Source of the DNA: Alphaproteobacteria bacterium
GTDB lineage: Bacteria > Pseudomonadota > Alphaproteobacteria > Bin95
Assembly: GCA_022826185.1 (NCBI GenBank)
Contig: JAJDVH010000056.1
Span: 1-59,446 of the forward strand
DNA length: 59,446 nt
Reading direction: 5' to 3'
Shown: piece after piece, positions 839 to 29,121 of the stretch
How positions within the stretch are numbered: position 1 is the first letter of the stretch
Layout of the letters: each line of letters opens with the position of its first letter
Position numbers and translations under genes: made by a program
The notes under the pieces: generated by a model
Seen by the model: the letters and a program-made list of their open reading frames with translations, nothing else
What the model was told of the DNA's origin: nothing
Databases searched by the model: none

Positions 839-1549
839 TCAGTCCGCGAAACAATCCGCGAGGCGCAGGCGCGCGGCGGGCAGGGGGCGGTCCACGGCTC
901 CGGCGATATGGCGCGCGAGGAAATGGCCCGTCAGCGCGAGGCCGTCGCGAATGTCCGAAGGCGCGAACTCCGGCGCGCCGGAGAGGAACCCCGGCAGGGC
1001 CAGCAGCCGCTCCCGCCACGGCTCGCCCGCCTCGCGCGTGACGGCCCTGCCGGACCGCGGCGACACCCAGGCCAGCCCCGCGCGGGCGCCGGTGACTGCG
1101 CAGCGCTCCAGGTCGAGGCCGAAGCCGAGCTCGGCCAGCAGCGCCACCTCGTAGCCCACATAGGCCGCCGGCCAGGCTTCGCCCGCCAGCGTCTCCAGAA
1201 AGGCGGCGAGCCCGGAGAACGCGGCCGGGTGCGGCTCGCGCTCCGGCAGGCCCATTTCCGCCACCGCGCAGGCGCTCTGGAGCGCCGCCAGCCGCGCCGG
1301 GTCGTCCAGCCAGAGCGCGGCATGGGCCGTCTCCGCCTCGCAGGAAAACGTGCCGAGCTGGTCGCTGAGCCGCGCCCGCCAGCGCACCGTCGCCAGCGTT
1401 CCCGGCTGGAGCGCCTCGGCGTGGCGGCGCGCGCCCTGCACCAGCCCGGCATGGCGTCCATGCGCCTCGGTCAACGCCTGCGCGACGGCCTTGCCCTCCC
1501 CGAAGGGACGGGCCGAGAGCATGACGGCGCGGTCGGTCCAGTCGATCAT
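839..1549 (-). CDS. recO: DNA repair protein RecO
   Basis: 236-aa ORF with the length and sequence character of RecO ([18 protein letters not shown]...). It lies immediately upstream of parC and near era/rnc, as in other alphaproteobacteria. Confidence 0.85.
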
Positions 1550-1634
1550 CGCCGGGCGTCATACCACCGTTCGCCCCCCGGCGCCCCTGCGCCCGCAGCC
1601 GCGCTCCGCCGGCGGCGGCGAGACCCTGCGGAAA

Positions 1635-1660
1635 TGTCATGATCTGTCATGTTCCGTCAT
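1635..1660. promoter_or_regulatory. Array A1: three 10-bp-phased (T/C)GTCAT(G) direct repeats
   Basis: aTGTCATGatcTGTCATGttcCGTCATGg, with repeat starts at 1635, 1645 and 1655. It lies about 90-110 bp upstream of the recO start on the opposite strand. Confidence 0.45.
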
Positions 1661-1833
1661 GGGGCCGGTCTCCGCCCAGGCCGTTCGCAAGGCATTGCAG
1701 CCTCCTTGCCGGTCTGCGGTCCCGGACGTCCCGCCGCCGGAGGAGCGCTCCTCTCGCGCGCATAATGCGCGCCCGGCTGCGCGCGCGCTCGCCCGCCCGC
1801 GCGATAGCGGCGGGGCCGTCCCCTCCCCGTGGA

Positions 1834-1889
1834 TGTCATGTTTCGTCATGAGGAGGCCGTGCGATGTCATGGAATGTCATGTTCGCCAT
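1834..1889. promoter_or_regulatory. Array A2: five phased (T/C)G(T/C)CAT(G) direct repeats
   Basis: TGTCATG (1834), CGTCATG (1844), TGTCATG (1865), TGTCATG (1875) and CGCCATG (1884). The core and helical phasing match arrays A1 and B. Confidence 0.45.
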
Positions 1890-2026
1890 GCGCCGGAAGC
1901 ATGTTCTGCGGTCGATCCGGGCATAAGGCCCCCGTTCCGGACACGTCCCCTGGGTATGTCCTCCGCTTCACCTGGCCTTGCGTCTTCGGCATAAGTCTCT
2001 CCTTTCGAACCCTGTTCGTTCCGTTC

Positions 2027-2331
2027 TCCCCGCCGCCGGTTCCTCCCTGCGGCGGGACCCTGTTTCGCGCGTATCCTGCGCCCGCCTGCGCCCGGGCGCA
2101 GGCGCGCGTTTCGCGGCGGCGCGGTTCGTGCGCCTGATTGCGCCTGCGCGCCCGCGCGAGCGCGAAGGCCCGGGCATCGGGCACACCTGTCCCGTCACCT
2201 TCCCAGGGGCCTTTTCGCGCCGGCGCGAACGGATGCGGCCTCCGGATACCGCCTCCTCCCGGCCTATATAGGCAAGGCGTTCCCTTGGTCAATGCCAAAC
2301 AAGGAATTTTTACAAAATTAAGGAACAAATC
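2027..2331. repeat. Copy A of a ~300-bp conserved non-coding element (candidate sRNA or long leader)
   Basis: Collinear blocks are shared with 28734-29052. ggaccctgt is at 2055 and 28798. ggcgcggttcgYgcgcctgattgc is at 2118-2141 and 28847-28870 (23/24 identical). ttttcgcgccggcgcgaa is at 2212-2229 and 28926-28943 (18/18). cggaYaccgcYtcctcc is at 2243 and 28962. An A/T-rich tail ggaattNtt..aat.aag.aacaaa follows in both. No credible ORF is conserved between the copies. Confidence 0.6.
2265..2292 (-). promoter_or_regulatory. Sigma70-type promoter candidate reading leftwards into element A
   Basis: The minus strand reads TTGACC (2292-2287), a 16-nt spacer, TATATA (2270-2265), then ggccggg and AGGAGG. 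An A/T-rich stretch lies upstream. The homologous position in copy B also carries a near-consensus promoter. Confidence 0.45.
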
Positions 2332-2448
2332 TGTCCATCCGATTTCGCGGCATCGCGAACGGGCTGCACCGGCGCGCGTCACGGGCTGTGGAACAGGGGC
2401 TGGCGGAGGTGAGGGGCAAGCTCACCTTCGTCAGAAATTACATCCTAC

Positions 2449-2490
2449 GCCGCTACTCGGCCGGCGGCGAAGCGCCGGCCGAGTAGCGGC
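2449..2490. repeat. Perfect 18-bp-stem inverted repeat (hairpin) at the islet boundary
   Basis: gccgctactcggccggcg (2449-2466), a gcgaag loop, then cgccggccgagtagcggc (2473-2490). The arms are exact reverse complements. No T-tract follows on either strand. Confidence 0.7.
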
Positions 2491-2590
2491 TGGTTCGACT
2501 GCCCCGATCCTGTCTTTCCGGGTAAACGCCGTCTTCCGCGCCTCGTCGCTGCGGCATCGCCCAATCGCCGGAAGCACGCCATTGGGATAT

Positions 2591-2612
2591 CCCGCCGCAG
2601 AGTGTCGGCGGG
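2591..2612 (-). terminator. Possible terminator hairpin downstream of the 69-aa gene
   Basis: The 7-bp stem cccgccg / cggcggg (2591-2597 and 2606-2612) lies 8 nt after the stop at 2620. The downstream U-tract is weak. Confidence 0.3.
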
Positions 2613-2619
2613 CGCCGGG

Positions 2620-2829
2620 TCAGTAAAAGGTCCCTAGCGGGATCGTGGCGATGTAGGCTTTCAGCGGTTCCCGGCTATGCTTCGCGATGCACTGGCACAG
2701 CATCGGGATCTGATCCTCGCCGATCCCAAAGCCCCATGGCATCGACTCGCCAAAGATCGCCTCCCACTCGCCTCCGAGGATAGCGAGTTCGTCGGGATCG
2801 TCGCGCAGACCGTCTTCGCCGTCTGCCAT
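2620..2829 (-). CDS. Hypothetical small acidic protein (69 aa)
   Basis: An AGGA Shine-Dalgarno sequence lies 4 nt upstream of the ATG, and the gene starts 7 nt after the stop of the upstream gene, so the arrangement is operonic. I recognise no family. Confidence 0.55.
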   Translation of the reverse strand: MADGEDGLRDDPDELAILGGEWEAIFGESMPWGFGIGEDQIPMLCQCIAKHSREPLKAYIATIPLGTFY

Positions 2830-2836
2830 CGTTCCT

Positions 2837-3031
2837 TCACTTCTTGCCGGAGGTTCCTTGGTTCGGCGGATTTGATGGCGCCTTGGCGGGAGCGCCCTGG
2901 CTGGCCGTGGGCTGGTGCCCGTCCTGCGGTCGCGGCCTGTAGCCGAATGTAACGTCTACAGGCTGGTATCCCCGATTTTGGATTGGTGGCGGTGGCTTCA
3001 CCGGCTTGTCAGACTTGCTCATCGGCATCAT
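2837..3031 (-). CDS. Hypothetical small proline-rich basic protein (64 aa)
   Basis: MMPMSKSDKPVKPPPPIQNRGYQP... The start overlaps the end of the upstream membrane-protein gene, which suggests translational coupling. I recognise no family. Confidence 0.45.
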   Translation of the reverse strand: MMPMSKSDKPVKPPPPIQNRGYQPVDVTFGYRPRPQDGHQPTASQGAPAKAPSNPPNQGTSGKK

Positions 3032-3644
3032 CCTCTGGAGTGTAAGGCCAGAATTCTATCGTCTTGACCTCACCCGGCGCGATGAGAACCCCCTTCGGAC
3101 CGGGCGAGGACCAGCTACCCGTATTATCTATATCGTAAATTTGCTCAATGTAAATGTCACGATTGGTCGGATCAGACGATATGAAGGAGCTCTGCCCGCA
3201 GAAACCGACGAATCGGGTATCATCCTTAAGGGTAACCAAGACCCATTGTTCGGTCATATTCCCGAATTTCCAATCCCATGCTGTTGTGATCGGATGGACA
3301 AGATTGAGGCCGCAACGCTGGAGAAAGCGGTGCAACAAGTTCTTCCTAATATTAATTCCGAGTAAGAGACCGATAAGTGCAGGTCCAATGAAAATCAAGA
3401 TAGACCAGATCACTTCTCTACCATATTCTCGTTCACTCAAACGCTGGATCGGGTCCAGAAGAAGAAACGACAGAGCGTAATAGACAAGGGAAACCGCGAG
3501 ATAGCTCAGAAGCATCGCCGAATGCGATGGCATTCGGCCGGTTACAAATTGAGAACGGACAAATAGGATAATGAGGCCCGGCACAAGGAGGCCCATGGCC
3601 GCATAAAGATTGTTAATGTTGTCGATGGATTTCAGTTGTTCCAA
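3009..3644 (-). CDS. Membrane protein with three N-terminal TM helices and a soluble C-terminal domain (resembles DUF6338, from memory)
   Basis: 211-aa ORF with a TTG start. Hydrophobic segments are LYAAMGLLVPGLIILFV, AMLLSYLAVSLVYYALSFLLL and VIWSILIFIGPALIGLLLGINI. G+C content and codon usage are clearly lower here than in the flanking genes. Confidence 0.7.
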   Translation of the reverse strand: MEQLKSIDNINNLYAAMGLLVPGLIILFVRSQFVTGRMPSHSAMLLSYLAVSLVYYALSFLLLDPIQRLSEREYGREVIWSILIFIGPALIGLLLGINIRKNLLHRFLQRCGLNLVHPITTAWDWKFGNMTEQWVLVTLKDDTRFVGFCGQSSFISSDPTNRDIYIEQIYDIDNTGSWSSPGPKGVLIAPGEVKTIEFWPYTPEDDADEQV

Positions 3645-3678
3645 AGTTCCGCAGTTCCTTCATAGGCGCTGAAACCGT

Positions 3679-4040
3679 TTACTTCCCTGCTTGAAGCATA
3701 GCCCGGCGATTGAACGCCAGCAATTCCCTCAGCGCCTCCGCCTCGCCGATTTCCGCGTTCCAGCCATAGGCCGTAGCCATGGGCATCCAGCGCCGCATAG
3801 GTGTCGGCGAGCCATTGGGGGCGGGCGTTATAGAGGTTCGTCAGGGTTCGCTTGCGGAGTTCCGTCGCGGCTTTCTCGTTGCGGGCGGCGGGCAGGTTTC
3901 TCCCGCCATTCGACCCATTCGGGCGGGTTGAGGCCAGCGGTTGTGCAGTTCGGCGAGGCGGCGGACGGCCTCGGCGATGACGGCCGCCTGCGCGGGCCGC
4001 GTTTCACCGTCGCTGGAGAACCGCCGGGTCCGGCGGGTCG
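3679..4040 (-). pseudogene. Frameshifted C-terminal remnant of a large SAM-dependent DNA methyltransferase (MmeI/type IIG or PglX-like tail)
   Basis: The minus-strand translation needs at least 3 frames: AAVIAEAVRRLAELHNRW / LNPPEWVEWREKPARR / EKAATELRKRTLTNLYNARPQWLADTYAALDA / MATAYGWNAEIGEAEALRELLAFNRRAMLQAGK*. The TLTNLYNxRPxWL...AYGW tail is characteristic of that family. Only about the last 115 codons are present. Confidence 0.65.
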
Positions 4041-4044
4041 CGCC

Positions 4045-4326
4045 CTACCCCGAAGCGAGGGCGTCGAATGTCTCCACATCGACGGCGGGGGAGGTCAGGA
4101 AGCCGACCCCGGTCAGGCGCGTCAGTTTCAGCGAGACCTGCATCGCGGTCTCGACATCCGGCAAGTCAACGATGAGGATGAGGTCGAAGGCCCCGAGCAG
4201 CGCGTATATGCCGACCACCTCGCCGCCGCTCTCGCGGACCACCTCCGCCGCCCGGTCGGTGCGCGATGCGCTGATCCCGTCCATCGACCCCTGCGTGTAT
4301 TTTCCGAGCATGACGAACCTGGCCAT
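4045..4326 (-). CDS. GYD domain-containing protein
   Basis: 93 aa: MARFVMLGKYTQGSMDGISASRTDRAAEVV...GAFDLILIVDLPDVETA matches the GYD family pattern. Confidence 0.75.
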   Translation of the reverse strand: MARFVMLGKYTQGSMDGISASRTDRAAEVVRESGGEVVGIYALLGAFDLILIVDLPDVETAMQVSLKLTRLTGVGFLTSPAVDVETFDALASG

Positions 4327-4458
4327 GATGTCCCCTCCGGTGCGGTTTCAGGATTCCTCGAGCCGCGCCCGATACGGACGGGCAAGCGGTCGGGGATTAT
4401 ATACGAAAGTCACGAACGGCTCCTGCCGCCGGCCGCGGAATCATCCCCGCGCCCCGGT

Positions 4459-5355
4459 TCAGACATTGTAGTCGAGGCCGAGGTCGCGGAAGCGCTCCGG
4501 GTCGTCGGGCCAGCCCTCGCGCACCCTCACCGTCAGGAACAGGTGGACCGGCCGGTCGAGCGCTTCGGCCAGCTCCGCCTGCGCGGCCTCGCGGATGGCC
4601 TTGATGCGCGCGCCGCCCTTGCCGAGCACGATCGCGCGCTGGCTCGTCCGGCGCACATAGACCGTCTGGTCGATGCGCACGCCGCCATTGTCGAACTCCT
4701 GCCAGTCCGCCGTTTCGGTCGCGATGTCGTAGGGAATCTCGTCATGCAGGCGCAGGAACAGCTTCTCGCGCGTGATCTCGGCGGCGAGGAAGCGCAGCGG
4801 CACGTCGGAGAGGTCGTCCTCGGGATAGAGCCAGGGACCCTCCGGCAGGCGCCCCGCAAGATGCTCGAACAGGTCGTCCACGCCGTCGCCGGTCAGCGCC
4901 GAGACCATGAAGACATCGCTGAAGCAGCCCGTTGCGTAGAGCCGGTCGGCGCGCGCCAGCAGCCGTTCGCGCGCGATCAGGTCGATCTTGTTGAGCGCCA
5001 GCACCGCCTGTCCGCCGCCCGCCTTGAGGCCCGCGACGATATCCGCCTCGCGGGCGCCCGGCCGGCGCGCGGCATCGACGAGCAGCACGGTGATGTCGGC
5101 ATCGCCCGCAGCGCGCCAGGCGCGGCGCACCATCGCGCGCTCCAGCCGCCGCTGCGGCTCGAATATGCCGGGCGTGTCCACGAAGATGACCTGGGATGCG
5201 CCCTTGATGCGGATGCCGAGCACGCGCGAGCGCGTGGTCTGCGCCTTGGGGGTGACGATGGAGACCTTGGCGCCGACCAGCCGGTTGAGCAGGGTGGACT
5301 TGCCGGCATTGGGCGCGCCCAGCAGGGCGACGAAGCCGGCCCGGCGCGCGGTCAT
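4459..5355 (-). CDS. era: GTPase Era
   Basis: G1 motif GAPNAGKST, DTPG, NKID and a C-terminal KH domain. I placed the start at the ATG at 5355, which forms an ATGA overlap with the rnc stop. The longer track ORF is an upstream extension. Confidence 0.95.
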   Translation of the reverse strand: MTARRAGFVALLGAPNAGKSTLLNRLVGAKVSIVTPKAQTTRSRVLGIRIKGASQVIFVDTPGIFEPQRRLERAMVRRAWRAAGDADITVLLVDAARRPGAREADIVAGLKAGGGQAVLALNKIDLIARERLLARADRLYATGCFSDVFMVSALTGDGVDDLFEHLAGRLPEGPWLYPEDDLSDVPLRFLAAEITREKLFLRLHDEIPYDIATETADWQEFDNGGVRIDQTVYVRRTSQRAIVLGKGGARIKAIREAAQAELAEALDRPVHLFLTVRVREGWPDDPERFRDLGLDYNV

Positions 5356-6008
5356 TCGAGCTTTTCGAGCAGGGCGGCGGCCGCGGCCGCGGCGGCGGCG
5401 CGCTTGGAGCCGCCGGACCCCTTGGCCCGTTCGCCGCTGGACAGCGCGGCCTCGACCTCGAATTCGGGGCGGTGCGCGGGGCCGCGGCGCGCGCGGACGG
5501 TATAGACCGGCTGGCCGAGCGCGCGGGCGTGGCTCCATTCCTGCAGGCGGCTGCGGGCGTCGCGCTCCACCTCCGCATGGCGCTCGACCAGCGCCCGCCA
5601 GTGGCGGCGCACGAACTGCCGCGCGGCGTCGAGCCCGCCGTCGAGGTAGAGCGCCGCGATGACCGCCTCGCAGGCGTCCGCCGCCGGCTTCTCCGCCATG
5701 CGCCTGTCGCGGGCCTTCGGGTCCCGCATGAGAGCCGCGTCGAGGCCCGTTTCCCTTGCGACCTCGATCAGCGTCTCCTCGCTCACCAGCACGGACATGC
5801 GCAGGCCGACCCCGCCTTCGTCCACTTCGGGGAAGCGCTCCAGCAGCATCTCGGCCACGACAAGGCCCAGCACGCGGTCGCCGAGGAACTCCAGCCGCTG
5901 GAACGCGCCGTCCCCGCGCCCCGGCGCGCTCGGATGGGTCAGCGCCTGCCGGAGCAGGCCGGGGTCGGCGAACTCATGGCCGAGCGCGGCGCGAAACCGG
6001 GCGTTCAC
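5352..6008 (-). CDS. rnc: Ribonuclease III
   Basis: RNase III signature ERLEFLGDRVLGLVVAE plus a C-terminal dsRBD. The GTG start at 6008 forms a GTGA overlap with the lepB stop. The 645-aa track ORF is a chimeric read-through. Confidence 0.9.
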   Translation of the reverse strand: MNARFRAALGHEFADPGLLRQALTHPSAPGRGDGAFQRLEFLGDRVLGLVVAEMLLERFPEVDEGGVGLRMSVLVSEETLIEVARETGLDAALMRDPKARDRRMAEKPAADACEAVIAALYLDGGLDAARQFVRRHWRALVERHAEVERDARSRLQEWSHARALGQPVYTVRARRGPAHRPEFEVEAALSSGERAKGSGGSKRAAAAAAAAALLEKLE

Positions 6009-6730
6009 GGTCCTATCGCGTCGAAAAGGCGCTCCCAGCGAACCCCGGACGGATATCTCCAGAGCTCCCAGAAGCTGGTGTCGTGGTCGAGGGAAAAGAA
6101 CAGGATTTCCGCCCGCCCGACGAAATTCTCCGTCGGGATGTAGCCCACATGGTTGAGGAAGCGGCTGTCGGTGGAGTTGTCCCGATTGTCGCCCATGGCG
6201 AAATAGTGGTCCTCCGGCACCTCGAACACCGGCGTGTTGTCGGCGGGGCCGGAATCGCTTTCCTCCAGGATCTCGTAGGAGCGGCCGTTCGGCAGGGTCT
6301 CCCGGTAACGGATGGCCCGCTTCACGATCCCGTATTTGTCGCGGTAGTTCGTCGGCCCGATGCGTCCGCGCGCCACCGGCGTCCCATTGATGAACAGACG
6401 GCCGCTGCGCATCTGGACGGTGTCGCCCGGCAAGCCGACGACGCGCTTCACGAAATCGATCTTCGGCGCGACCGGATTCTTGAACACCGCCACATCGCCG
6501 CGCTCGGGCCCCTCCCCGAACAGGCGCCCCGGCCCCGGAACCAGCGGCAGGCCGAACGGCAGCGAATAGCGGCTGTAACCGTAGGAATATTTGGAGACGA
6601 ACAGGAAATCCCCGACCAGCAGGGTCTGCAGCATCGAGCCGGAGGGGATCGTGAAGGGCTCGAAGAGGAAACTGCGGATGCCAAGGGCGATCAGGCCGGC
6701 ATAGACGATGGTCTTGACGGTTTCTTTCAC
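6005..6730 (-). CDS. lepB: Signal peptidase I
   Basis: IPSGSM catalytic serine box, GDNRDNSTDSR box and an N-terminal TM segment. Confidence 0.95.
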   Translation of the reverse strand: MKETVKTIVYAGLIALGIRSFLFEPFTIPSGSMLQTLLVGDFLFVSKYSYGYSRYSLPFGLPLVPGPGRLFGEGPERGDVAVFKNPVAPKIDFVKRVVGLPGDTVQMRSGRLFINGTPVARGRIGPTNYRDKYGIVKRAIRYRETLPNGRSYEILEESDSGPADNTPVFEVPEDHYFAMGDNRDNSTDSRFLNHVGYIPTENFVGRAEILFFSLDHDTSFWELWRYPSGVRWERLFDAIGP

Positions 6731-6814
6731 GGGTGCTGCGACCTGGATGAGGAAATGCCGGATTCCCGCCGGCGCGGATGCGGCCCGGATAGAACGCCGC
6801 CGGGCGGCCGGCTG

Positions 6815-7234
6815 TCAAGCGCCGCCATTCGCCGCATTCGCCGGCAGCGCGGTGATGATGACCAGAGCGTGGGCCAATGGCGGCTCGTCGGTGATGGTGA
6901 GGTCGATGCGCGCGCGGGTGCCCGGCGGCAAAAGGCTTGCAAGCCGCCTGGCCGCGCCGCCGGTCAGCTGCAATGTCGGGCGTCCGCCCGGCAGGTTGAC
7001 CACGCCCATGTCGCGCCAGTAGACGCCCTGGCGCAGCCCCGTGCCGAGCGCCTTGGAGCAGGCCTCCTTGGCCGCGAAGCGCCGGGCGTAGCTGGCCGCG
7101 CGCAGATGCCGGCGGTCCGAGCGCCGCCGTTCGGCCTCGGTGAAGACGCGGCGCGTGAAACGCTCGCCGAAGCGCTCCAGCGTGCGTTCGATCCGGGTAA
7201 TGTCGATCAGGTCGCTGCCGAGCCCGACGATCAT
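6815..7234 (-). CDS. acpS: Holo-[acyl-carrier-protein] synthase
   Basis: [16 protein letters not shown]...[14 protein letters not shown] is the typical AcpS pattern. There is an ATGA overlap with the pdxJ stop. Confidence 0.9.
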
Positions 7235-7959
7235 CGCGCGCGGTCCATCGCCGCCCGCATCCGCCGGACCGCCTCCGCCAGGCCGACAAAGATGGCCTCG
7301 CCGACGAGGAAATGGCCGATATTCAGCTCGGCCACCGTCTCGATGGCCGCGACAGGCCCGACATTGTCATAGGTCAGCCCGTGTCCGGCGTGGCATTCGA
7401 GGCCGAGTTCCGCCGCGAGTTCCGCCGCCGAGCGGATGCGGTCGAGCTCGGCCTCCTGCTCCCGCCCCGCCAGTTCGCAATAGCGCCCGGTGTGCAACTC
7501 CACCACAGGCGCGCCCAGCGCCACCGCGGCGCGAAGCTGTCCGGGGTCCGGCTCGATGAACAGCGAGACCCGGATGCCCGCCGCCGCCAGCGCCTCCACT
7601 CTCCTGCCCAGCGCGCTGCCGAGGCCGGCCGCGTCGAGGCCGCCCTCGGTGGTGAGTTCCTCGCGCTTCTCCGGCACGAGGCAGGCGGCGTGCGGCAGGA
7701 CGGCGGAGGCGATCTCCACCATCGCGTCGGTCGGCGCCATCTCGAAATTGAGCGGCGCCGGCAGCCGTTCCTTGAGCCGGCGCATGTCCTCGTCGCGGAT
7801 ATGGCGGCGGTCCTCGCGCAGATGCGCGGTGATCCCGTCCGCGCCGGCCTCGCAGGCCAGCAGGGCCGCCCGCACGGGGTCCGGATACGCCACCCCGCGC
7901 GCATTGCGGACGGTTGCGACATGGTCGATGTTCACCCCGAGCCTCGGTCGGTTTGTCAT
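7231..7959 (-). CDS. pdxJ: Pyridoxine 5'-phosphate synthase
   Basis: [16 protein letters not shown]...HLREDRRHI...ECHAGHGL motifs. The start is the ATG at 7959, with an ATGA overlap to the upstream gene. Confidence 0.95.
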
Positions 7960-26424: not shown

Positions 26425-27897
26425 ATGCGGATTGCGGTCGGCGGATTTCACCACGAGACCAATACCTTTGCGCCGACAAAGGCAAGCTTCGAGATGTTCC
26501 GCCGCGCCGACGGCTGGCCGGGGCTCTGCCGGGGCGGGGCCGTGCTCGCCGACACGGCCGGCATAAACCTGCCCATCGCGGGCTTCCTGGAGGCGGCGCG
26601 CGCGTCCGGCCGCGACTTCGCGCCGCTGGTCTGGGCCAATGCCAGCCCCTCGGCCGAGGTCGAGGAGGAGGCCTATGAGCGCATCGCCGGCATGATGGTG
26701 GACGACCTCCGGGACGCCGGGCCGGTGGACGCCGTCTATCTGGACCTGCACGGCGCCATGGTCGCGGAGCATCTTGAGGACGGCGAAGGCGAGCTGCTGC
26801 GCCGCGTGCGCGCCGTCATCGGCCCCGATGTGCCGCTGGTGGCAAGCCTCGACCTCCACGCCAATGTCTCGCCGCTGATGGCGGGCCGGGCGGACGCGCT
26901 GACCGTGTTCCGCACCTATCCGCATGTCGATATGGCCGAGACCGGCGCGCGCACGGCCCGCCTGCTGGAGCGCATTCTCGCCGAGGGGCGGCCGGCCAAG
27001 GGGTTCCGGCAGATCCCCTTCCTCATCCCGCTGACCGCGCAATGCACGCTGGTCGAGCCGGCGGCGGGCCTCTATGCGGGTCTGGACGAACGGGAACGGG
27101 GCGCCGTCCGCTCCGTCTCGCTCGCCGGCGGCTTCCCGCTCGCCGACACGCCCGACTGCGGCCCGGCCGCGCTCGCCTATGCCGGCGACGAGCGGAGCGC
27201 GGCGGCCGCGGCCGAGGCGCTGGCGGAGGCGGTGCTGGCGGCGCGCGGGCGCTTTGCCGCCGCCTTCCTCTCGCCGGAAGAAGCGGTGGCGCGCGCCGAC
27301 CGGGCGGGGCGCTCGGGCCGGCCGGTCGTCATTGCGGACAGCTGCGACAATCCGGGCGGAGGCGGCGACGGCGACACCACGGGCCTCTTGCGCGCGCTCG
27401 CGGCCGCGCGGCCGGAAGGCGCGGTGCTGGGCCTGCTGATCGACGGGCAGGCGGCGGCGGCGGCGCATGAGACGGGCGAAGGCGGGCGGCTCTCGCTGGC
27501 GCTTGGCGGGCGTTCCGGCATATCGGGCGACGCGCCGTTCGAGACCGACGCCATCGTGCGCCGGCTGGGCGACGGGAGCTTCACCTGCACGGGGCCCTTC
27601 TATGGCGGCAACCGGATGCAGCTCGGGCCGATGGCGCTGCTGGAGTTGCCGGGCGGCGTGCAGGTCGTTGTCGCCAGCCGCAAGGTGCAGGCGGCCGACC
27701 GGGAGATGTTCCGCCATCTGGGCGTGGAGCCGGCGGACTGCCGCATTCTGGCGCTCAAGAGCTCGGTGCATTTCCGCGCCGATTTCGGGCCGATCGCCGG
27801 CGAGGTGCTGATCGCCGCCGCGCCGGGCCCGGTGGCGGCCGATCCGGGCGCGCTCGCCTTTACCCGGCTTCGCCCCGGCGTGGCGCAGCGGCCCTGA
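26425..27897 (+). CDS. M81 family metallopeptidase (MlrC-like)
   Basis: MRIAVGGFHHETNTF N-terminus with typical MlrC N- and C-terminal domains. Confidence 0.85.
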   Translation: MRIAVGGFHHETNTFAPTKASFEMFRRADGWPGLCRGGAVLADTAGINLPIAGFLEAARASGRDFAPLVWANASPSAEVEEEAYERIAGMMVDDLRDAGPVDAVYLDLHGAMVAEHLEDGEGELLRRVRAVIGPDVPLVASLDLHANVSPLMAGRADALTVFRTYPHVDMAETGARTARLLERILAEGRPAKGFRQIPFLIPLTAQCTLVEPAAGLYAGLDERERGAVRSVSLAGGFPLADTPDCGPAALAYAGDERSAAAAAEALAEAVLAARGRFAAAFLSPEEAVARADRAGRSGRPVVIADSCDNPGGGGDGDTTGLLRALAAARPEGAVLGLLIDGQAAAAAHETGEGGRLSLALGGRSGISGDAPFETDAIVRRLGDGSFTCTGPFYGGNRMQLGPMALLELPGGVQVVVASRKVQAADREMFRHLGVEPADCRILALKSSVHFRADFGPIAGEVLIAAAPGPVAADPGALAFTRLRPGVAQRP

Positions 27898-28549
27898 AGA
27901 AAGGCAGCAGCGCGATCCCGGCCGCGAAGCCGCCGATATGCGCCCACCAGGCGACCTTCGCGTCCTCGCCGAAGGTGGAGAGCCCGAGGAAGAACTGCAC
28001 CGCGAACCATCCCGCCACCAGCAGCCAGGCCGGCAGGCGCAGCGGCACGACGAAGAACAGCACCAGGATGCGCGCCCGCGGGCTCAGCACCAGATAGGCC
28101 CCCAATATGCCCGATATCGCCCCGCTCGCCCCGATCAGCGGCACCGCGGAGGAGGGGTCCGTCAGCCCGTGCGCGAGCGCGGCCAGCACGCCGCAAAGCA
28201 GGAAGAACAGGGCGAAGCGCAGATGGCCCATCGCGTCCTCGACATTGTCGCCGAAGATGTAGAGATAGGCCATGTTGCCGAGCAGGTGCGCGAAGTCCCC
28301 GTGCAGGAACTGCGTCGTCACCAGCGAGAAGGACGCCGGCAGGATGGCGAGGTCGGGACGCAGTTGCAGCTCGCCCAGCAGCCGCCCCGGCACGAAGCCG
28401 AGCGCCAGCAGCCGGCGGTATTCCATGGCTTCCGGCAGGCTCGACTGCCAGATGAACGCGACGACGCAGAGCAGGATCGCCCCCCAGGTGACGTAAGGCG
28501 TCTCGATGCGCGTGCGCTCATTGTCGTCATGGATCGGCATGAACGGCAT
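27860..28549 (-). CDS. Rhomboid family intramembrane serine protease
   Basis: Multi-TM protein with HLLGNM, a GASGAISG catalytic serine motif and a downstream AHIGG histidine. Confidence 0.88.
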   Translation of the reverse strand: MPFMPIHDDNERTRIETPYVTWGAILLCVVAFIWQSSLPEAMEYRRLLALGFVPGRLLGELQLRPDLAILPASFSLVTTQFLHGDFAHLLGNMAYLYIFGDNVEDAMGHLRFALFFLLCGVLAALAHGLTDPSSAVPLIGASGAISGILGAYLVLSPRARILVLFFVVPLRLPAWLLVAGWFAVQFFLGLSTFGEDAKVAWWAHIGGFAAGIALLPFFRAAAPRRGEAG

Positions 28550-28696
28550 AGGCGGCAGGGTAGCAGCTTGCCGCGATGTTCCCGAGCGATGCGGCCGCCG
28601 GCTCGGCCGGACATCGGGCCGCTATTCAATCCGCCGCTCGCAACTGCCCATCGTGACGCCGCGGTCACGCGGCAAATTCGAGACTCCGTAGGCGCA

Positions 28697-28722
28697 GGTC
28701 ATGTTTTGTCATGTTTTGTCAT
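28697..28722. promoter_or_regulatory. Array B: three 10-bp-phased (G/T)GTCATG direct repeats
   Basis: gGTCATGttttGTCATGttttGTCATGtt, with repeat starts at 28697, 28707 and 28717. It lies about 150 bp upstream of the rhomboid start on the opposite strand and directly adjoins element copy B. Confidence 0.45.
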
Positions 28723-28733
28723 GTTCCCTCCTT

Positions 28734-29052
28734 GCGGCGGCCTTTCCTCCGCCGGGTTTCGTTGCCTTCGTGTTCCCGGCCGCCGGACCGGGAGCGCGGA
28801 CCCTGTACCGCGCGCAATCGCCTGCGCGCGGGCGGGTGTCGGCGCCGGCGCGGTTCGCGCGCCTGATTGCCCGCGCATGCGAGGCGGGCGCAGGACGCAC
28901 GTCTCCCGTCGGTTCCTTCGGGTTTTTTTCGCGCCGGCGCGAAACGGAAGAAGCGGCGCCGCGGACACCGCTTCCTCCTACCCTCATTGTAGCACACTTC
29001 GCCAGAATGCAAGCCCACAACGGGGAATTGTTTCGAGAATCAAGAACAAACA
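28734..29052. repeat. Copy B of the ~300-bp conserved non-coding element
   Basis: See copy A (2027-2331). The same ordered sequence blocks and the same A/T-rich tail are present. Confidence 0.6.
28986..29013 (-). promoter_or_regulatory. Sigma70-type promoter candidate reading leftwards into element B
   Basis: The minus strand reads cTTGCAt (29013-29007), a 15-16-nt spacer, TACAAT (28991-28986), then gagggt and AGGAGG. The position is homologous to the promoter in copy A. Confidence 0.4.
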
Positions 29053-29121
29053 ACGTATTCCTGCCGGGGTGACGATTGCGGGGCCGGTGTGCGATGCGGC
29101 CCGGTTCAAGGGGATGCGGCG

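What the first reader, a model, noticed from the sequence alone, without database searches (positions are those of the whole stretch)
2027..2331. Duplicated ~300-bp structured non-coding element with its own strong promoter (candidate novel sRNA or shared long leader), copy A
Copy A (2027-2331) and copy B (28734-29052) share ordered blocks separated by small indels:
- A 23/24-identical 24-mer (2118-2141 and 28847-28870).
- An identical 18-bp perfect palindrome, TTTTCGCGCCGGCGCGAA.
- ggaccctgt.
- cggaYaccgcYtcctcc.
- An A/T-rich tail.

No reading frame is conserved between the copies. The 89-aa Arg-rich ORF of copy B hits a stop in the corresponding frame of copy A.

Evidence for a minus-strand transcript: both copies carry a near-consensus sigma70 promoter at the homologous position. 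Copy A has TTGACC-16-TATATA and copy B has cTTGCA-16-TACAAT. In both, AGGAGG follows 6-7 nt later.

Evidence for a plus-strand transcript: the response-regulator-type repeats lie upstream in the orientation expected for activation. The plus strand also carries several CCUCC / CCUCCUCCC anti-Shine-Dalgarno-like motifs. One sits in the loop of a hairpin whose stem is CCCGCCGC/GCGGCGGG in copy A, while copy B has a similar but non-collinear hairpin (CGGCGG/CCGCCG) with a UCCU loop. The CCUCCUCCC motif is the hallmark of the alphaproteobacterial cuckoo/CcsR sRNA family.

The two copies sit in unrelated gene contexts, which suggests a mobile or independently functional RNA or regulatory module rather than gene-specific leader sequence.
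Basis: partly seen in the sequence, partly recalled or inferred. Interest (0 to 1): 0.72.

Follow-up and report, generated by a model that had tools for sequence, protein, structure and literature searches.

The report
Dispersed promoter-bearing intergenic repeat family
The two look-alike stretches are copies of a repeat family present many times per genome in uncultured, sponge-associated alphaproteobacteria, each unit carrying a promoter-like site, a conserved leader and a terminal array of 10-base CATGACA repeats, and the family matches no RNA family in Rfam or any phage or plasmid record I could search.

Summary
The duplication is real, but it is not a two-copy curiosity. Both copies belong to a family with 131 profile matches in about 1 Mb of fetched DNA, at least ten copies in several genomes (lower bounds). 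All come from one clade of uncultured, largely sponge-derived Alphaproteobacteria.

Conserved order points to the window's minus strand as the sense strand:
- an A/T-rich stretch
- a TTGACA / TGnTAnnAT promoter-like site
- a purine-rich start and 5' hairpin
- a roughly 250-nt conserved core, including the 24-mer
- a GC hairpin
- a variable insert
- arrays of CATGACA at an exact 10-nt period

Rfam gives nothing; CcsR/cuckoo scores 12-13 bits against a 65-bit cut-off. Covariation does not support a conserved RNA fold. The 41-codon ORF is not conserved. I found no terminal inverted repeats, target duplications or transposase.

Both copies sit at synteny breakpoints and point at recO and a rhomboid gene. 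In some relatives era and recO are adjacent. Elsewhere the same frame encloses a multi-copy orphan small-terminase-like DNA-binding gene.

Best reading: gene-less portable promoter-leader cassettes. The role of the arrays is unresolved.

The parts
2291..2336 (-). Copy A: A/T-rich upstream stretch. The 5' boundary motif TTTGTTC reads GAACAAA on the + strand.
   Evidence: The family profile match starts at 2336. Homology among type II copies ends at T(T/C)TGTTC.
2265..2292 (-). Copy A: promoter-like site. TTGACC (2292-2287), a 16-nt spacer, then TATATA (2270-2265).
   Evidence: Read directly from the sequence. Family consensus is TTGACA at 90/88/89/83/76/60% and TAnnnT. It fails the strict scan. 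Promoter activity is inferred.
2233..2260 (-). Copy A: purine-rich start (GGGAGGAGG) and 5' hairpin (GGCGG...CCGC).
   Evidence: The family consensus is GGAAGCGGC...GCCGCTTC. Folding individual copies gives this hairpin in most of them.
2214..2229 (.). Copy A: 16-bp palindrome TTCGCGCCGGCGCGAA. This hairpin position varies among subfamilies.
2054..2198 (-). Copy A: conserved core, including the 24-mer at 2118-2141.
   Evidence: Covariance-model match of 63.5 bits, E 3e-8. 24-mer located.
2029..2056 (-). Copy A: GC hairpin CCCGCCGC / GCGGCGGG after ...AACAGGGUCCC.
   Evidence: The same feature sits at the equivalent place in most copies.
1867..1992 (-). Copy A: 41-codon ORF (MPKTQ...EHDIP) whose stop codon lies inside the first array. 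Probably not a gene.
   Evidence: Across 32 copies this ORF varies from 15 to 96 codons, and only 8 have 41 codons.
1834..1891 (-). Copy A: two-part array of CATGAC(A) repeats at a 10-nt period. These read TGTCATG on the + strand.
1635..1661 (-). Copy A: third CATGACA array, 85 nt upstream of the recO start codon (1549).
   Evidence: The array is shared with the orthologous loci L110, L116 and L119.
29014..29060 (-). Copy B: A/T-rich upstream stretch with the TTTGTTC boundary.
28986..29013 (-). Copy B: promoter-like site. Read either as CTTGCA-16-TACAAT, or as TTGCAT-15-TACAAT with TG two bases before the -10 hexamer.
   Evidence: Read. Fails the strict scan. Family conservation.
28928..28943 (.). 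Copy B: 16-bp palindrome TTCGCGCCGGCGCGAA.
28797..28912 (-). Copy B: conserved core, including the 24-mer at 28847-28870.
   Evidence: Covariance-model match of 84.1 bits, E 8e-12. 24-mer located.
28735..28754 (-). Copy B: GC hairpin (CGGCGG / CCGCCG) between the core and the array.
28697..28723 (-). Copy B: array of three CATGAC repeats at a 10-nt period, preceded by AAGGAGGGAA.
839..1549 (-). recO. It lies downstream of copy A on the same strand and is cut off from era by the insert at 1565-4458.
   Evidence: era and recO are adjacent in L114, L120, L121 and L123.
27860..28549 (-). Rhomboid-family gene. It lies downstream of copy B on the same strand. Synteny with relatives ends at 28563-28574.

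Best explanation
Copies A and B are gene-less members of an old, lineage-specific family of interspersed cassettes.

Each cassette reads on the window's minus strand as follows:
1. An A/T-rich stretch plus a sigma-70-type promoter.
2. A purine-rich, hairpin-capped 5' end.
3. A conserved leader of about 250 nt.
4. A variable insert.
5. Arrays of CATGACA at a 10-nt period, which end the unit.

In the window they most likely act as portable promoter-plus-leader modules. Copy A transcribes toward recO, which a 2.9-kb insert has cut off from the era operon. Copy B transcribes toward a rhomboid-family gene whose upstream context was rearranged.

The arrays are most likely tandem binding sites for a DNA-binding protein that gates or ends this transcription. 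Candidates are the family's own small-terminase-like helix-turn-helix protein or an OmpR/PhoB-type regulator.

Shown: family membership, architecture, strand polarity of the conserved order, positions at synteny breaks, and absence of an intrinsic terminator.

Inferred: promoter activity, read-through into recO and the rhomboid gene, and protein binding at the arrays.
For: Family size and spread:
- The 24-mer alone hit more than 107 loci, several genomes each contributing ten or more.
- The core profile gave 131 matches in the loci fetched.

Polarity:
- The -35 and -10 hexamers are conserved family-wide.
- 127 of 157 CATGAC arrays lie within 600 nt downstream of a core on the same strand.
- 91 of 106 cores are followed by an array, and 13 of the other 15 are cut off by the end of the locus.
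- Among spacings of 6 to 30 nt between CATGAC copies, 10 nt stands out: 246 pairs, with 92 and 12 at its multiples 20 and 30, 20 at 21, and at most 5 at any other spacing.

Terminators:
- No minus-strand terminator-like site lies between either promoter and the downstream gene.
- Only 8 of 57 family copies have a weak candidate after the arrays.

Synteny:
- era and recO abut in L114, L120, L121 and L123. The window has 1565-4458 inserted between them.
- The element lies upstream of recO in L109, L110, L113 and L116 at 77-82% identity, against 90-92% for recO itself.
- Similarity to five rhomboid loci of relatives stops at 28563-28574, and none of them has the element.
- The ortholog of the gene upstream of copy B, in L071, is not followed by the element.

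Sequence constraint:
- In the five recO-linked copies the 24-mer has 0-2 changes while the whole element differs by 14-23%.

Gene-carrying versions of the same frame:
- Core, then a roughly 326-aa Terminase_2-like gene, then an array that contains its stop codon, in L012, L030, L034, L045, L048 and L226.
Against: - There are no expression data, so the promoter and the transcribed strand are inferred.
- The two window copies fail the strict promoter scan.
- Family-wide, the next gene downstream is co-directional in only 48 of 84 cases and convergent in 36. Driving a downstream gene therefore cannot be the general function.
- About 23 arrays within the clade have no detectable core upstream.
- No protein has been shown to bind the arrays.
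- Gene calls in the fetched loci came from a crude GC3-based caller.
Confidence: 0.5

Rival explanations
1. A multi-copy small-RNA gene. Each copy makes a stable, trans-acting or protein-sequestering RNA of about 270-450 nt from its own strong promoter. Effects on neighbouring genes would be incidental.
For: - 36 of 84 copies face the 3' end of a convergent gene, so they have no gene of their own to drive.
- Sequence blocks are conserved in every copy.
- The sense strand is rich in GGA and GGAGG motifs.
- One-sided C-to-U changes that keep G-U pairs occur in the helix GAnnUGCGY / GCGCAAUC.
Against: - There is no conserved intrinsic terminator.
- Covariation is no better than the shuffled control.
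- MFE z-scores are only -1.65 for the sense strand and -1.46 for the antisense strand.
- No Rfam family matches.
- The distance from core to array varies from 2 to more than 1000 nt.
Confidence: 0.18
2. A DNA-level site cassette. On this reading the CATGACA arrays are pac-like or recombination sites recognised by the orphan small-terminase-like protein. The gene-less copies would then be dispersed recognition sites for DNA packaging, gene transfer or rearrangement, and the promoter and leader would be left over from expressing that gene.
For: - The gene-carrying cassettes place a Terminase_2-type helix-turn-helix gene directly against the array, with its stop codon inside it.
- That gene is multi-copy and solitary among housekeeping genes.
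- Both window copies lie at synteny breakpoints.
- From my own knowledge, not checked here: some pac-type phages carry the pac site in or next to the small-terminase gene.
Against: - No large terminase or capsid genes lie nearby.
- The predicted structure is only a helix-turn-helix plus long helices, with the rest of low confidence.
- The leader blocks remain conserved in gene-less copies, which relics would not explain.
Confidence: 0.12
3. A ligand- or signal-sensing cis-regulatory leader, in the manner of a riboswitch or attenuator, shared by many operons.
For: - It is a long conserved 5' region with variable-length GC segments between invariant blocks.
- It lies upstream of co-directional genes in 48 of 84 cases.
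Against: - There is no covariation support.
- Downstream genes are functionally unrelated: recO, a rhomboid gene, lysyl-tRNA synthetase, dehydrogenases, and a small-terminase-like gene.
- 43% of copies are followed by a convergent gene.
- There is no terminator or anti-terminator pair.
- No Rfam family matches.
Confidence: 0.07
4. Here the TGTCATG repeats act as PhoB-type boxes that activate a plus-strand sRNA carrying CCUCC loops, in the manner of CcsR/cuckoo RNAs.
For: - The heptamer TGTCAT and the A/T-rich spacers resemble PHO boxes.
- CCUCC motifs lie on the plus strand.
Against: - The period is 10 nt, not 11.
- No -10-like hexamer follows the repeats.
- CcsR1 scores far below its threshold.
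- The plus strand has no conserved promoter, whereas the minus strand does.
Confidence: 0.03

Closest known systems
Promoter-carrying interspersed repeats and MITEs, such as Neisseria Correia elements and enterobacterial ERIC/BIME repeats (compared from my own knowledge)
   Same: - High copy number in intergenic DNA.
- A few hundred bp long.
- Presence or absence varies between related genomes.
- Can supply promoter activity to neighbouring genes.
- Associated with rearrangement points.
   Different: - No terminal inverted repeats.
- No target-site duplication.
- No partner transposase.
- Strongly polar and modular.
- Copies within a genome are old: mostly below 95% identical, with indels.
PHO box (PhoB/PhoP binding sites)
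   Same: Direct repeats of a TGTCAT-type heptamer separated by A/T-rich spacers, in runs of two to four.
   Different: - The repeat unit is 10 nt, not 11.
- The arrays lie at the 3' end of a transcription unit, in the opposite orientation to it.
- No -10 element follows them.
CcsR / cuckoo RNAs (Rfam RF02791)
   Same: An alphaproteobacterial host, and a CCUCCUCCC string on one strand of copy A.
   Different: - No model match: 12-13 bits against 65.3.
- About 300-500 nt rather than about 80-100 nt.
- The motif lies on the strand that has no conserved promoter.
- No terminator.
Small-terminase gene with an adjacent pac site in pac-type phages and satellites (compared from my own knowledge)
   Same: In the gene-carrying versions, a Terminase_2-type helix-turn-helix gene sits directly next to an array of helically phased direct repeats.
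   Different: - The gene is solitary and multi-copy, with no large terminase or other phage genes nearby.
- The window's two copies carry no such gene.

Membership tests
CcsR / cuckoo sRNA (Rfam RF02791) | Match to the Rfam covariance model at or above its gathering score | tested here: not met
   No Rfam family reaches its gathering score anywhere in the window. CcsR1 scores 11.9 and 13.3 bits against 65.3, with E of 2-8.
CcsR / cuckoo sRNA (Rfam RF02791) | A short RNA with CCUCCUCCC in hairpin loops, its own promoter and a terminator | tested here: not met
   The motif is on the plus strand of copy A only (2252-2260). The conserved promoter-like site is on the minus strand. No terminator was found.
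PHO box (PhoB site) | Direct repeats of a CTGTCAT-like heptamer with A/T-rich spacers | tested here: met
   TGTCATG repeats with TTT, GAA or ATC spacers.
PHO box (PhoB site) | An 11-nt repeat unit (7 conserved plus 4 less conserved nucleotides) | tested here: not met
   The period is exactly 10 nt: 246 pairs at 10 nt against 1 at 11 nt. The definition is taken from PMC4415409.
PHO box (PhoB site) | Takes the place of the -35 element of a promoter that has a -10 hexamer just downstream | tested here: not met
   No promoter-like site on the plus strand after the repeats.
MITE / non-autonomous DNA transposon | Terminal inverted repeats | tested here: not met
   The inverted-repeat search found only GC-rich internal pairs.
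MITE / non-autonomous DNA transposon | Target-site duplication flanking the element | tested here: not met
   No duplication of 5 nt or more in 18 copies with a defined 5' end. The 3' end is imprecise, so short or decayed duplications could have been missed.
MITE / non-autonomous DNA transposon | Many copies, with presence or absence varying at orthologous sites | tested here: met
MITE / non-autonomous DNA transposon | A related autonomous element that encodes a transposase | tested here: not met
   No recurrent transposase or integrase among 559 neighbouring ORFs. The only recurrent enclosed genes are a small-terminase-like helix-turn-helix protein and a 197-aa protein with no Pfam match.
Structured cis-regulatory RNA (riboswitch-like leader) | A conserved secondary structure supported by compensatory changes | tested here: not met
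   86.2% of cells paired against 85.9% in shuffles. 24 double-change cells out of 3482.
Structured cis-regulatory RNA (riboswitch-like leader) | Consistently upstream of co-directional genes of related function | tested here: not met
   48 co-directional against 36 convergent. Downstream gene functions are unrelated.
Sigma-70-type promoter | -35 and -10 hexamers at a workable spacing, conserved among copies | tested here: inconclusive
   The family consensus is strong. The spacing is often 15-16 nt, and both window copies fail the strict scan. Activity was not measured.

The most novel reading that the evidence does not exclude
The family could be a previously undescribed genome-wide system. 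On this reading, many portable transcription units per genome, each a strong promoter plus conserved leader plus CATGACA decamer array, would be read by a domesticated, multi-copy small-terminase-like DNA-binding protein. That protein could act as a regulon-wide roadblock or switch. Alternatively, the arrays could serve as distributed pac-like entry sites for packaging and transferring host DNA.
Probability: 0.15. Interest if true: 0.85.

Novelty: new variant of a known kind. Interest (0 to 1): 0.55.

Why it matters
If the reading holds, this is a natural portable expression cassette that has been fixed at many sites per genome in a clade of sponge symbionts.

- It marks where gene order has been broken, and it may restore expression of genes cut off from their operons. 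recO here is a clean example.
- The cassette would also explain part of the rearranged gene order seen among these MAGs.
- It is a concrete, testable case of regulatory rewiring by dispersed repeats.
- It links an orphan small-terminase-like protein family to a defined DNA motif.
- In practical terms, annotation pipelines currently leave these 350-550-bp stretches blank, or call spurious ORFs in them.

Tried and rejected
- **Rfam.** At gathering scores and at E up to 10, only chance-level hits.
- **RNAalifold on a MAFFT alignment of 99 copies.** Uninformative, because indels wreck the alignment.
- **Covariance model.** A 115-position, 33-pair model was built and 107 copies re-aligned to it. 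Covariation was no better than shuffles.
- **Strand discrimination by folding energy.** No difference between strands.
- **The 41-codon ORF and a 15-codon ORF as genes.** Lengths and reading frames are not conserved.
- **The ORF region as a deletion remnant of the small-terminase-like gene.** Similarity is limited to the arrays themselves.
- **Terminal inverted repeats and target duplications.** None found.
- **A linked transposase or integrase.** None found.
- **Phage and plasmid collections.** No match.
- **Literature.** Searches for the motif and for small terminases in sponge symbionts found nothing relevant beyond the PHO-box definition.
- **Structure prediction of the small-terminase-like protein.** Only the N-terminal helix-turn-helix and long helices are confident, with a mean pLDDT of 57. 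I therefore did not run a fold search.
- **Recent within-genome duplicates as a way to define the element's ends.** The one perfect pair, in L105, turned out to flank an IS21-like insertion rather than to reflect movement of the element itself.

Full report
**Observation**

- The 24-mer GGCGCGGTTCGYGCGCCTGATTGC occurs only at 2118-2141 and 28847-28870, with no match in shuffled sequence.
- TTTTCGCGCCGGCGCGAA occurs only at 2212-2229 and 28926-28943. Only its inner 16 bp is palindromic.
- The regions align at 69% column identity with indels.
- TGTCATG direct repeats occur only next to the two copies: 6 matches against 0.05 expected. Their period is 10 bp.
- Rfam at gathering scores finds nothing in the whole window.

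**It is a large family**

Nearly all come from uncultured 'Alphaproteobacteria bacterium' MAGs, and several genomes each contribute ten or more loci.

A profile built from 99 non-identical copies finds 131 matches in the fetched loci. In the window it finds exactly two: 2336-1973 (-) and 29060-28716 (-).

A second scan, using three CATGACA repeats as the pattern, again returned mostly this clade. Its hits include MAGs named after sponges: Spongia_Bin9, SB0661_bin_7 and COS4_bin_55. RecO and rhomboid orthologs place the clade near Thalassobaculaceae and Rhodospirillales.

There is no match in the phage or plasmid collections.

**Architecture and polarity**

Anchored displays and alignments give one conserved order. 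It reads on the strand complementary to the 24-mer as written, which is the window's minus strand:
1. An A/T-rich stretch that begins at T(T/C)TGTTC.
2. TTGACA (90/88/89/83/76/60% per position) and TGnTAnnAT.
3. A purine-rich GGAGGAAGGA and a hairpin GAAGCGGC...GCCGCUUC.
4. A second hairpin that differs between subfamilies. In the window it is the 16-bp palindrome.
5. An A run.
6. A core with the blocks GACGGGAGAnGUGCGCCCUG, GCAAUCAGGCGCRCGAACCGCGCC and GAUACGCGCGAAACAGGGUCCC.
7. A GC hairpin, CCCGCCGC...GCGGCGGG.
8. A GGAACGGAACG-type purine tract.
9. A variable insert.
10. One to three arrays of two to four CATGACA repeats.

Evidence that the arrays belong to the unit:
- Pairwise homology between copies ends about 190-210 nt upstream of the 24-mer. 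Downstream it ends at about +60 to +130, or at +250 to +310.
- Of 157 CATGAC arrays, 127 lie within 600 nt downstream of a core on the same strand. Among spacings of 6 to 30 nt, 10 nt stands out with 246 pairs; its multiples 20 and 30 have 92 and 12, 21 nt has 20, and every other spacing has at most 5.
- 91 of 106 cores are followed by an array, and 13 of the other 15 are cut off by the end of the locus.

In a sample ascertained by arrays rather than by the 24-mer, 54 of 87 assessable arrays have a recognisable core upstream. In that sample the 24-mer carries from one to seven changes or is missing. The 24-mer is thus the best-conserved block, not an invariant one. Arrays also occur with only a minimal promoter and hairpin, or on their own.

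**What lies between core and array**

- The distance is 2-100 nt in most copies, as in copy B. It is about 190-250 nt in a long form, as in copy A. It is about 600-1100 nt where a gene is enclosed.
- The 41-codon ORF of copy A (1867-1992) is not conserved. In 32 copies the equivalent ORF runs from 15 to 96 codons, and only eight have 41.
- The enclosed genes are of two kinds. One is a 197-aa protein with no Pfam match. The other is a protein of about 326 aa that matches the N-terminal half of Terminase_2 (E 4e-13) and whose stop codon lies inside the array, ending ...EHDIS*.
- The Terminase_2-like protein has more than 358 close relatives, several per genome. They are conserved along their whole length (72% mean column identity) and sit alone among housekeeping genes.
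- An independently fetched locus shows the same layout: core 5661-5991, gene 6001-6987, array 6973-6999.
- Its predicted structure is a confident helix-turn-helix plus long helices, with the rest of low confidence.

**Is it a structured RNA?**

- RNAalifold on the full alignment was uninformative.
- A hand-checked consensus for the core, with 33 pairs, was turned into a covariance model, and 107 copies were re-aligned to it. 86.2% of cells pair against 85.9% in shuffles. Only 24 of 3482 cells show changes on both sides, and many pairs are broken in about a third of copies.
- Folding energies lie only about 1.5 standard deviations below shuffles on either strand.
- The one hint of sense-strand pairing is a run of one-sided C-to-U and A-to-G changes that keep G-U pairs in the helix GAnnUGCGY / GCGCAAUC.
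- CcsR1 scores 12-13 bits against a cut-off of 65.3.

Conservation therefore lies in the sequence blocks, not in a demonstrable fold.

**Is it mobile?**

- No terminal inverted repeats.
- No flanking duplication in 18 copies with a defined 5' end.
- No recurrent transposase or integrase among 559 neighbouring ORFs.
- Copies within a genome are mostly below 95% identical.
- The one perfect pair, in L105, flanks an IS21-like insertion.

Occupancy nevertheless differs between species.
- **Copy A.** In L114, L120, L121 and L123, era and recO abut: window 4459 joins 1564. The window has about 2.9 kb inserted at 1565-4458. The element lies upstream of recO in L109, L110, L113 and L116, and in part in L108. 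It is absent in the others.
- **Copy B.** Similarity to five relatives stops at 28563-28574, about 20 nt before the rhomboid start codon, and none of them has the element. The ortholog of the gene upstream of copy B, in L071, is also not followed by it.

Both window copies therefore sit exactly at synteny junctions.

In the recO-linked orthologous copies the 24-mer has 0-2 changes while the element as a whole differs by 14-23%. That argues for constraint on gene-less copies.

**Relation to neighbouring genes**

With a crude GC3-based gene caller:
- The next gene downstream is co-directional in 48 cases and convergent in 36. By my own normal approximation to a binomial test this is not significant (p about 0.2).
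- The gene upstream is co-directional in 65 cases and divergent in 28 (p about 1e-4 by the same approximation).
- I checked two convergent cases by eye and both are real genes: a nuclease homolog in L016 and the 3' end of mnmA in L099.
- No conserved intrinsic terminator follows the arrays. Only 8 of 57 copies have a weak candidate, and none lies between either window copy and its downstream gene.

**Interpretation**

The best-supported reading is that copies A and B are gene-less members of an old family of polar cassettes that carry their own promoter and leader. In this window they supply transcription to recO, which has been cut off from the rnc-era operon, and to a rhomboid gene whose upstream context was rearranged.

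The arrays are most simply tandem protein-binding sites. They share the TGTCAT heptamer and A/T-rich spacers of PHO boxes, but their unit is 10 nt rather than 11 (PMC4415409), and they face the wrong way to activate the unit. The small-terminase-like helix-turn-helix protein encoded against such arrays is an obvious candidate binder.

An incidental property of a 10-nt period is that three repeats put AUG and UGA into all three reading frames. I note this but cannot weigh it.

Promoter activity, read-through and protein binding are all inferences. Because 43% of copies face a convergent gene, promoter donation cannot be the family's only role. A multi-copy RNA, or a DNA-level site function of pac-like or recombination type, remains open.

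**Novelty**

I found no description of the family in Rfam, the phage or plasmid collections, or the literature I could search. It resembles promoter-carrying interspersed repeats but lacks their inverted ends and duplications. Its frame of promoter, leader and decamer array, which sometimes encloses an orphan small-terminase-like gene, is unusual. I rate it a new variant of a known kind, with moderate interest.

Noticed in passing
window 1565-4458: A lineage-variable insert of about 2.9 kb splits the era-recO junction. It carries a low-GC (55%) DUF6338 gene (3009-3644, -), a GYD-domain gene (4045-4326, -) and two small ORFs (2620-2829 and 2837-3031, -). In L114, L120, L121 and L123, era and recO are adjacent.
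   Followed up: partly
window 2449-2490: A perfect hairpin with an 18-bp stem (GCCGCTACTCGGCCGGCG / CGCCGGCCGAGTAGCGGC) lies just upstream of copy A's promoter. It may be the terminator of the 69-codon ORF at 2620-2829, although the terminator scan did not call it.
   Followed up: no
L105, about 2000-7300: Two 100%-identical 376-bp segments of the element flank an IS21-like insertion. The insertion encodes an IstB-like ATPase and has ends CTGACTTCGACGGTTG... and ...CAACCGTCGAAGTCAG. This could reflect integration of a circle by homologous recombination, or an assembly effect.
   Followed up: partly
L012, L030, L034, L045, L048; L226 6001-6987: A multi-copy orphan gene annotated 'terminase small subunit' (about 326 aa). 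It has a helix-turn-helix, long helices, an acidic region and a lysine-rich tail. Several paralogs occur per genome, none inside a prophage, and each is framed by the element's core and a CATGACA array.
   Followed up: partly
L004 4974-5567; also L006, L023, L096: A second recurrent enclosed gene, about 197 aa and beginning MTATDPRP, has no Pfam match. It goes with a distinct promoter subtype, CTTGACATCTGGCGGATTGTGGTATGATGG.
   Followed up: no
L247, L248, L231, L254: CATGACA arrays also occur without the core. Some follow directly after another gene's intrinsic terminator. Others follow a minimal promoter plus 5' hairpin.
   Followed up: partly
L035 5816-6811: A contig binned as 'Bryobacterales' carries four tandem partial copies of the element. 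This is probably a binning error or a transfer from the alphaproteobacterial clade.
   Followed up: no
L237, L250, L255 (Dyadobacter flavalbus) and other non-alphaproteobacterial loci: Triple CATGACA repeats at a 10-nt period also turn up in a few unrelated taxa, three times in one Dyadobacter genome. Some of the low-GC loci printed show simple CATGACATGA-type tandem repeats. None has the element's core upstream.
   Followed up: no
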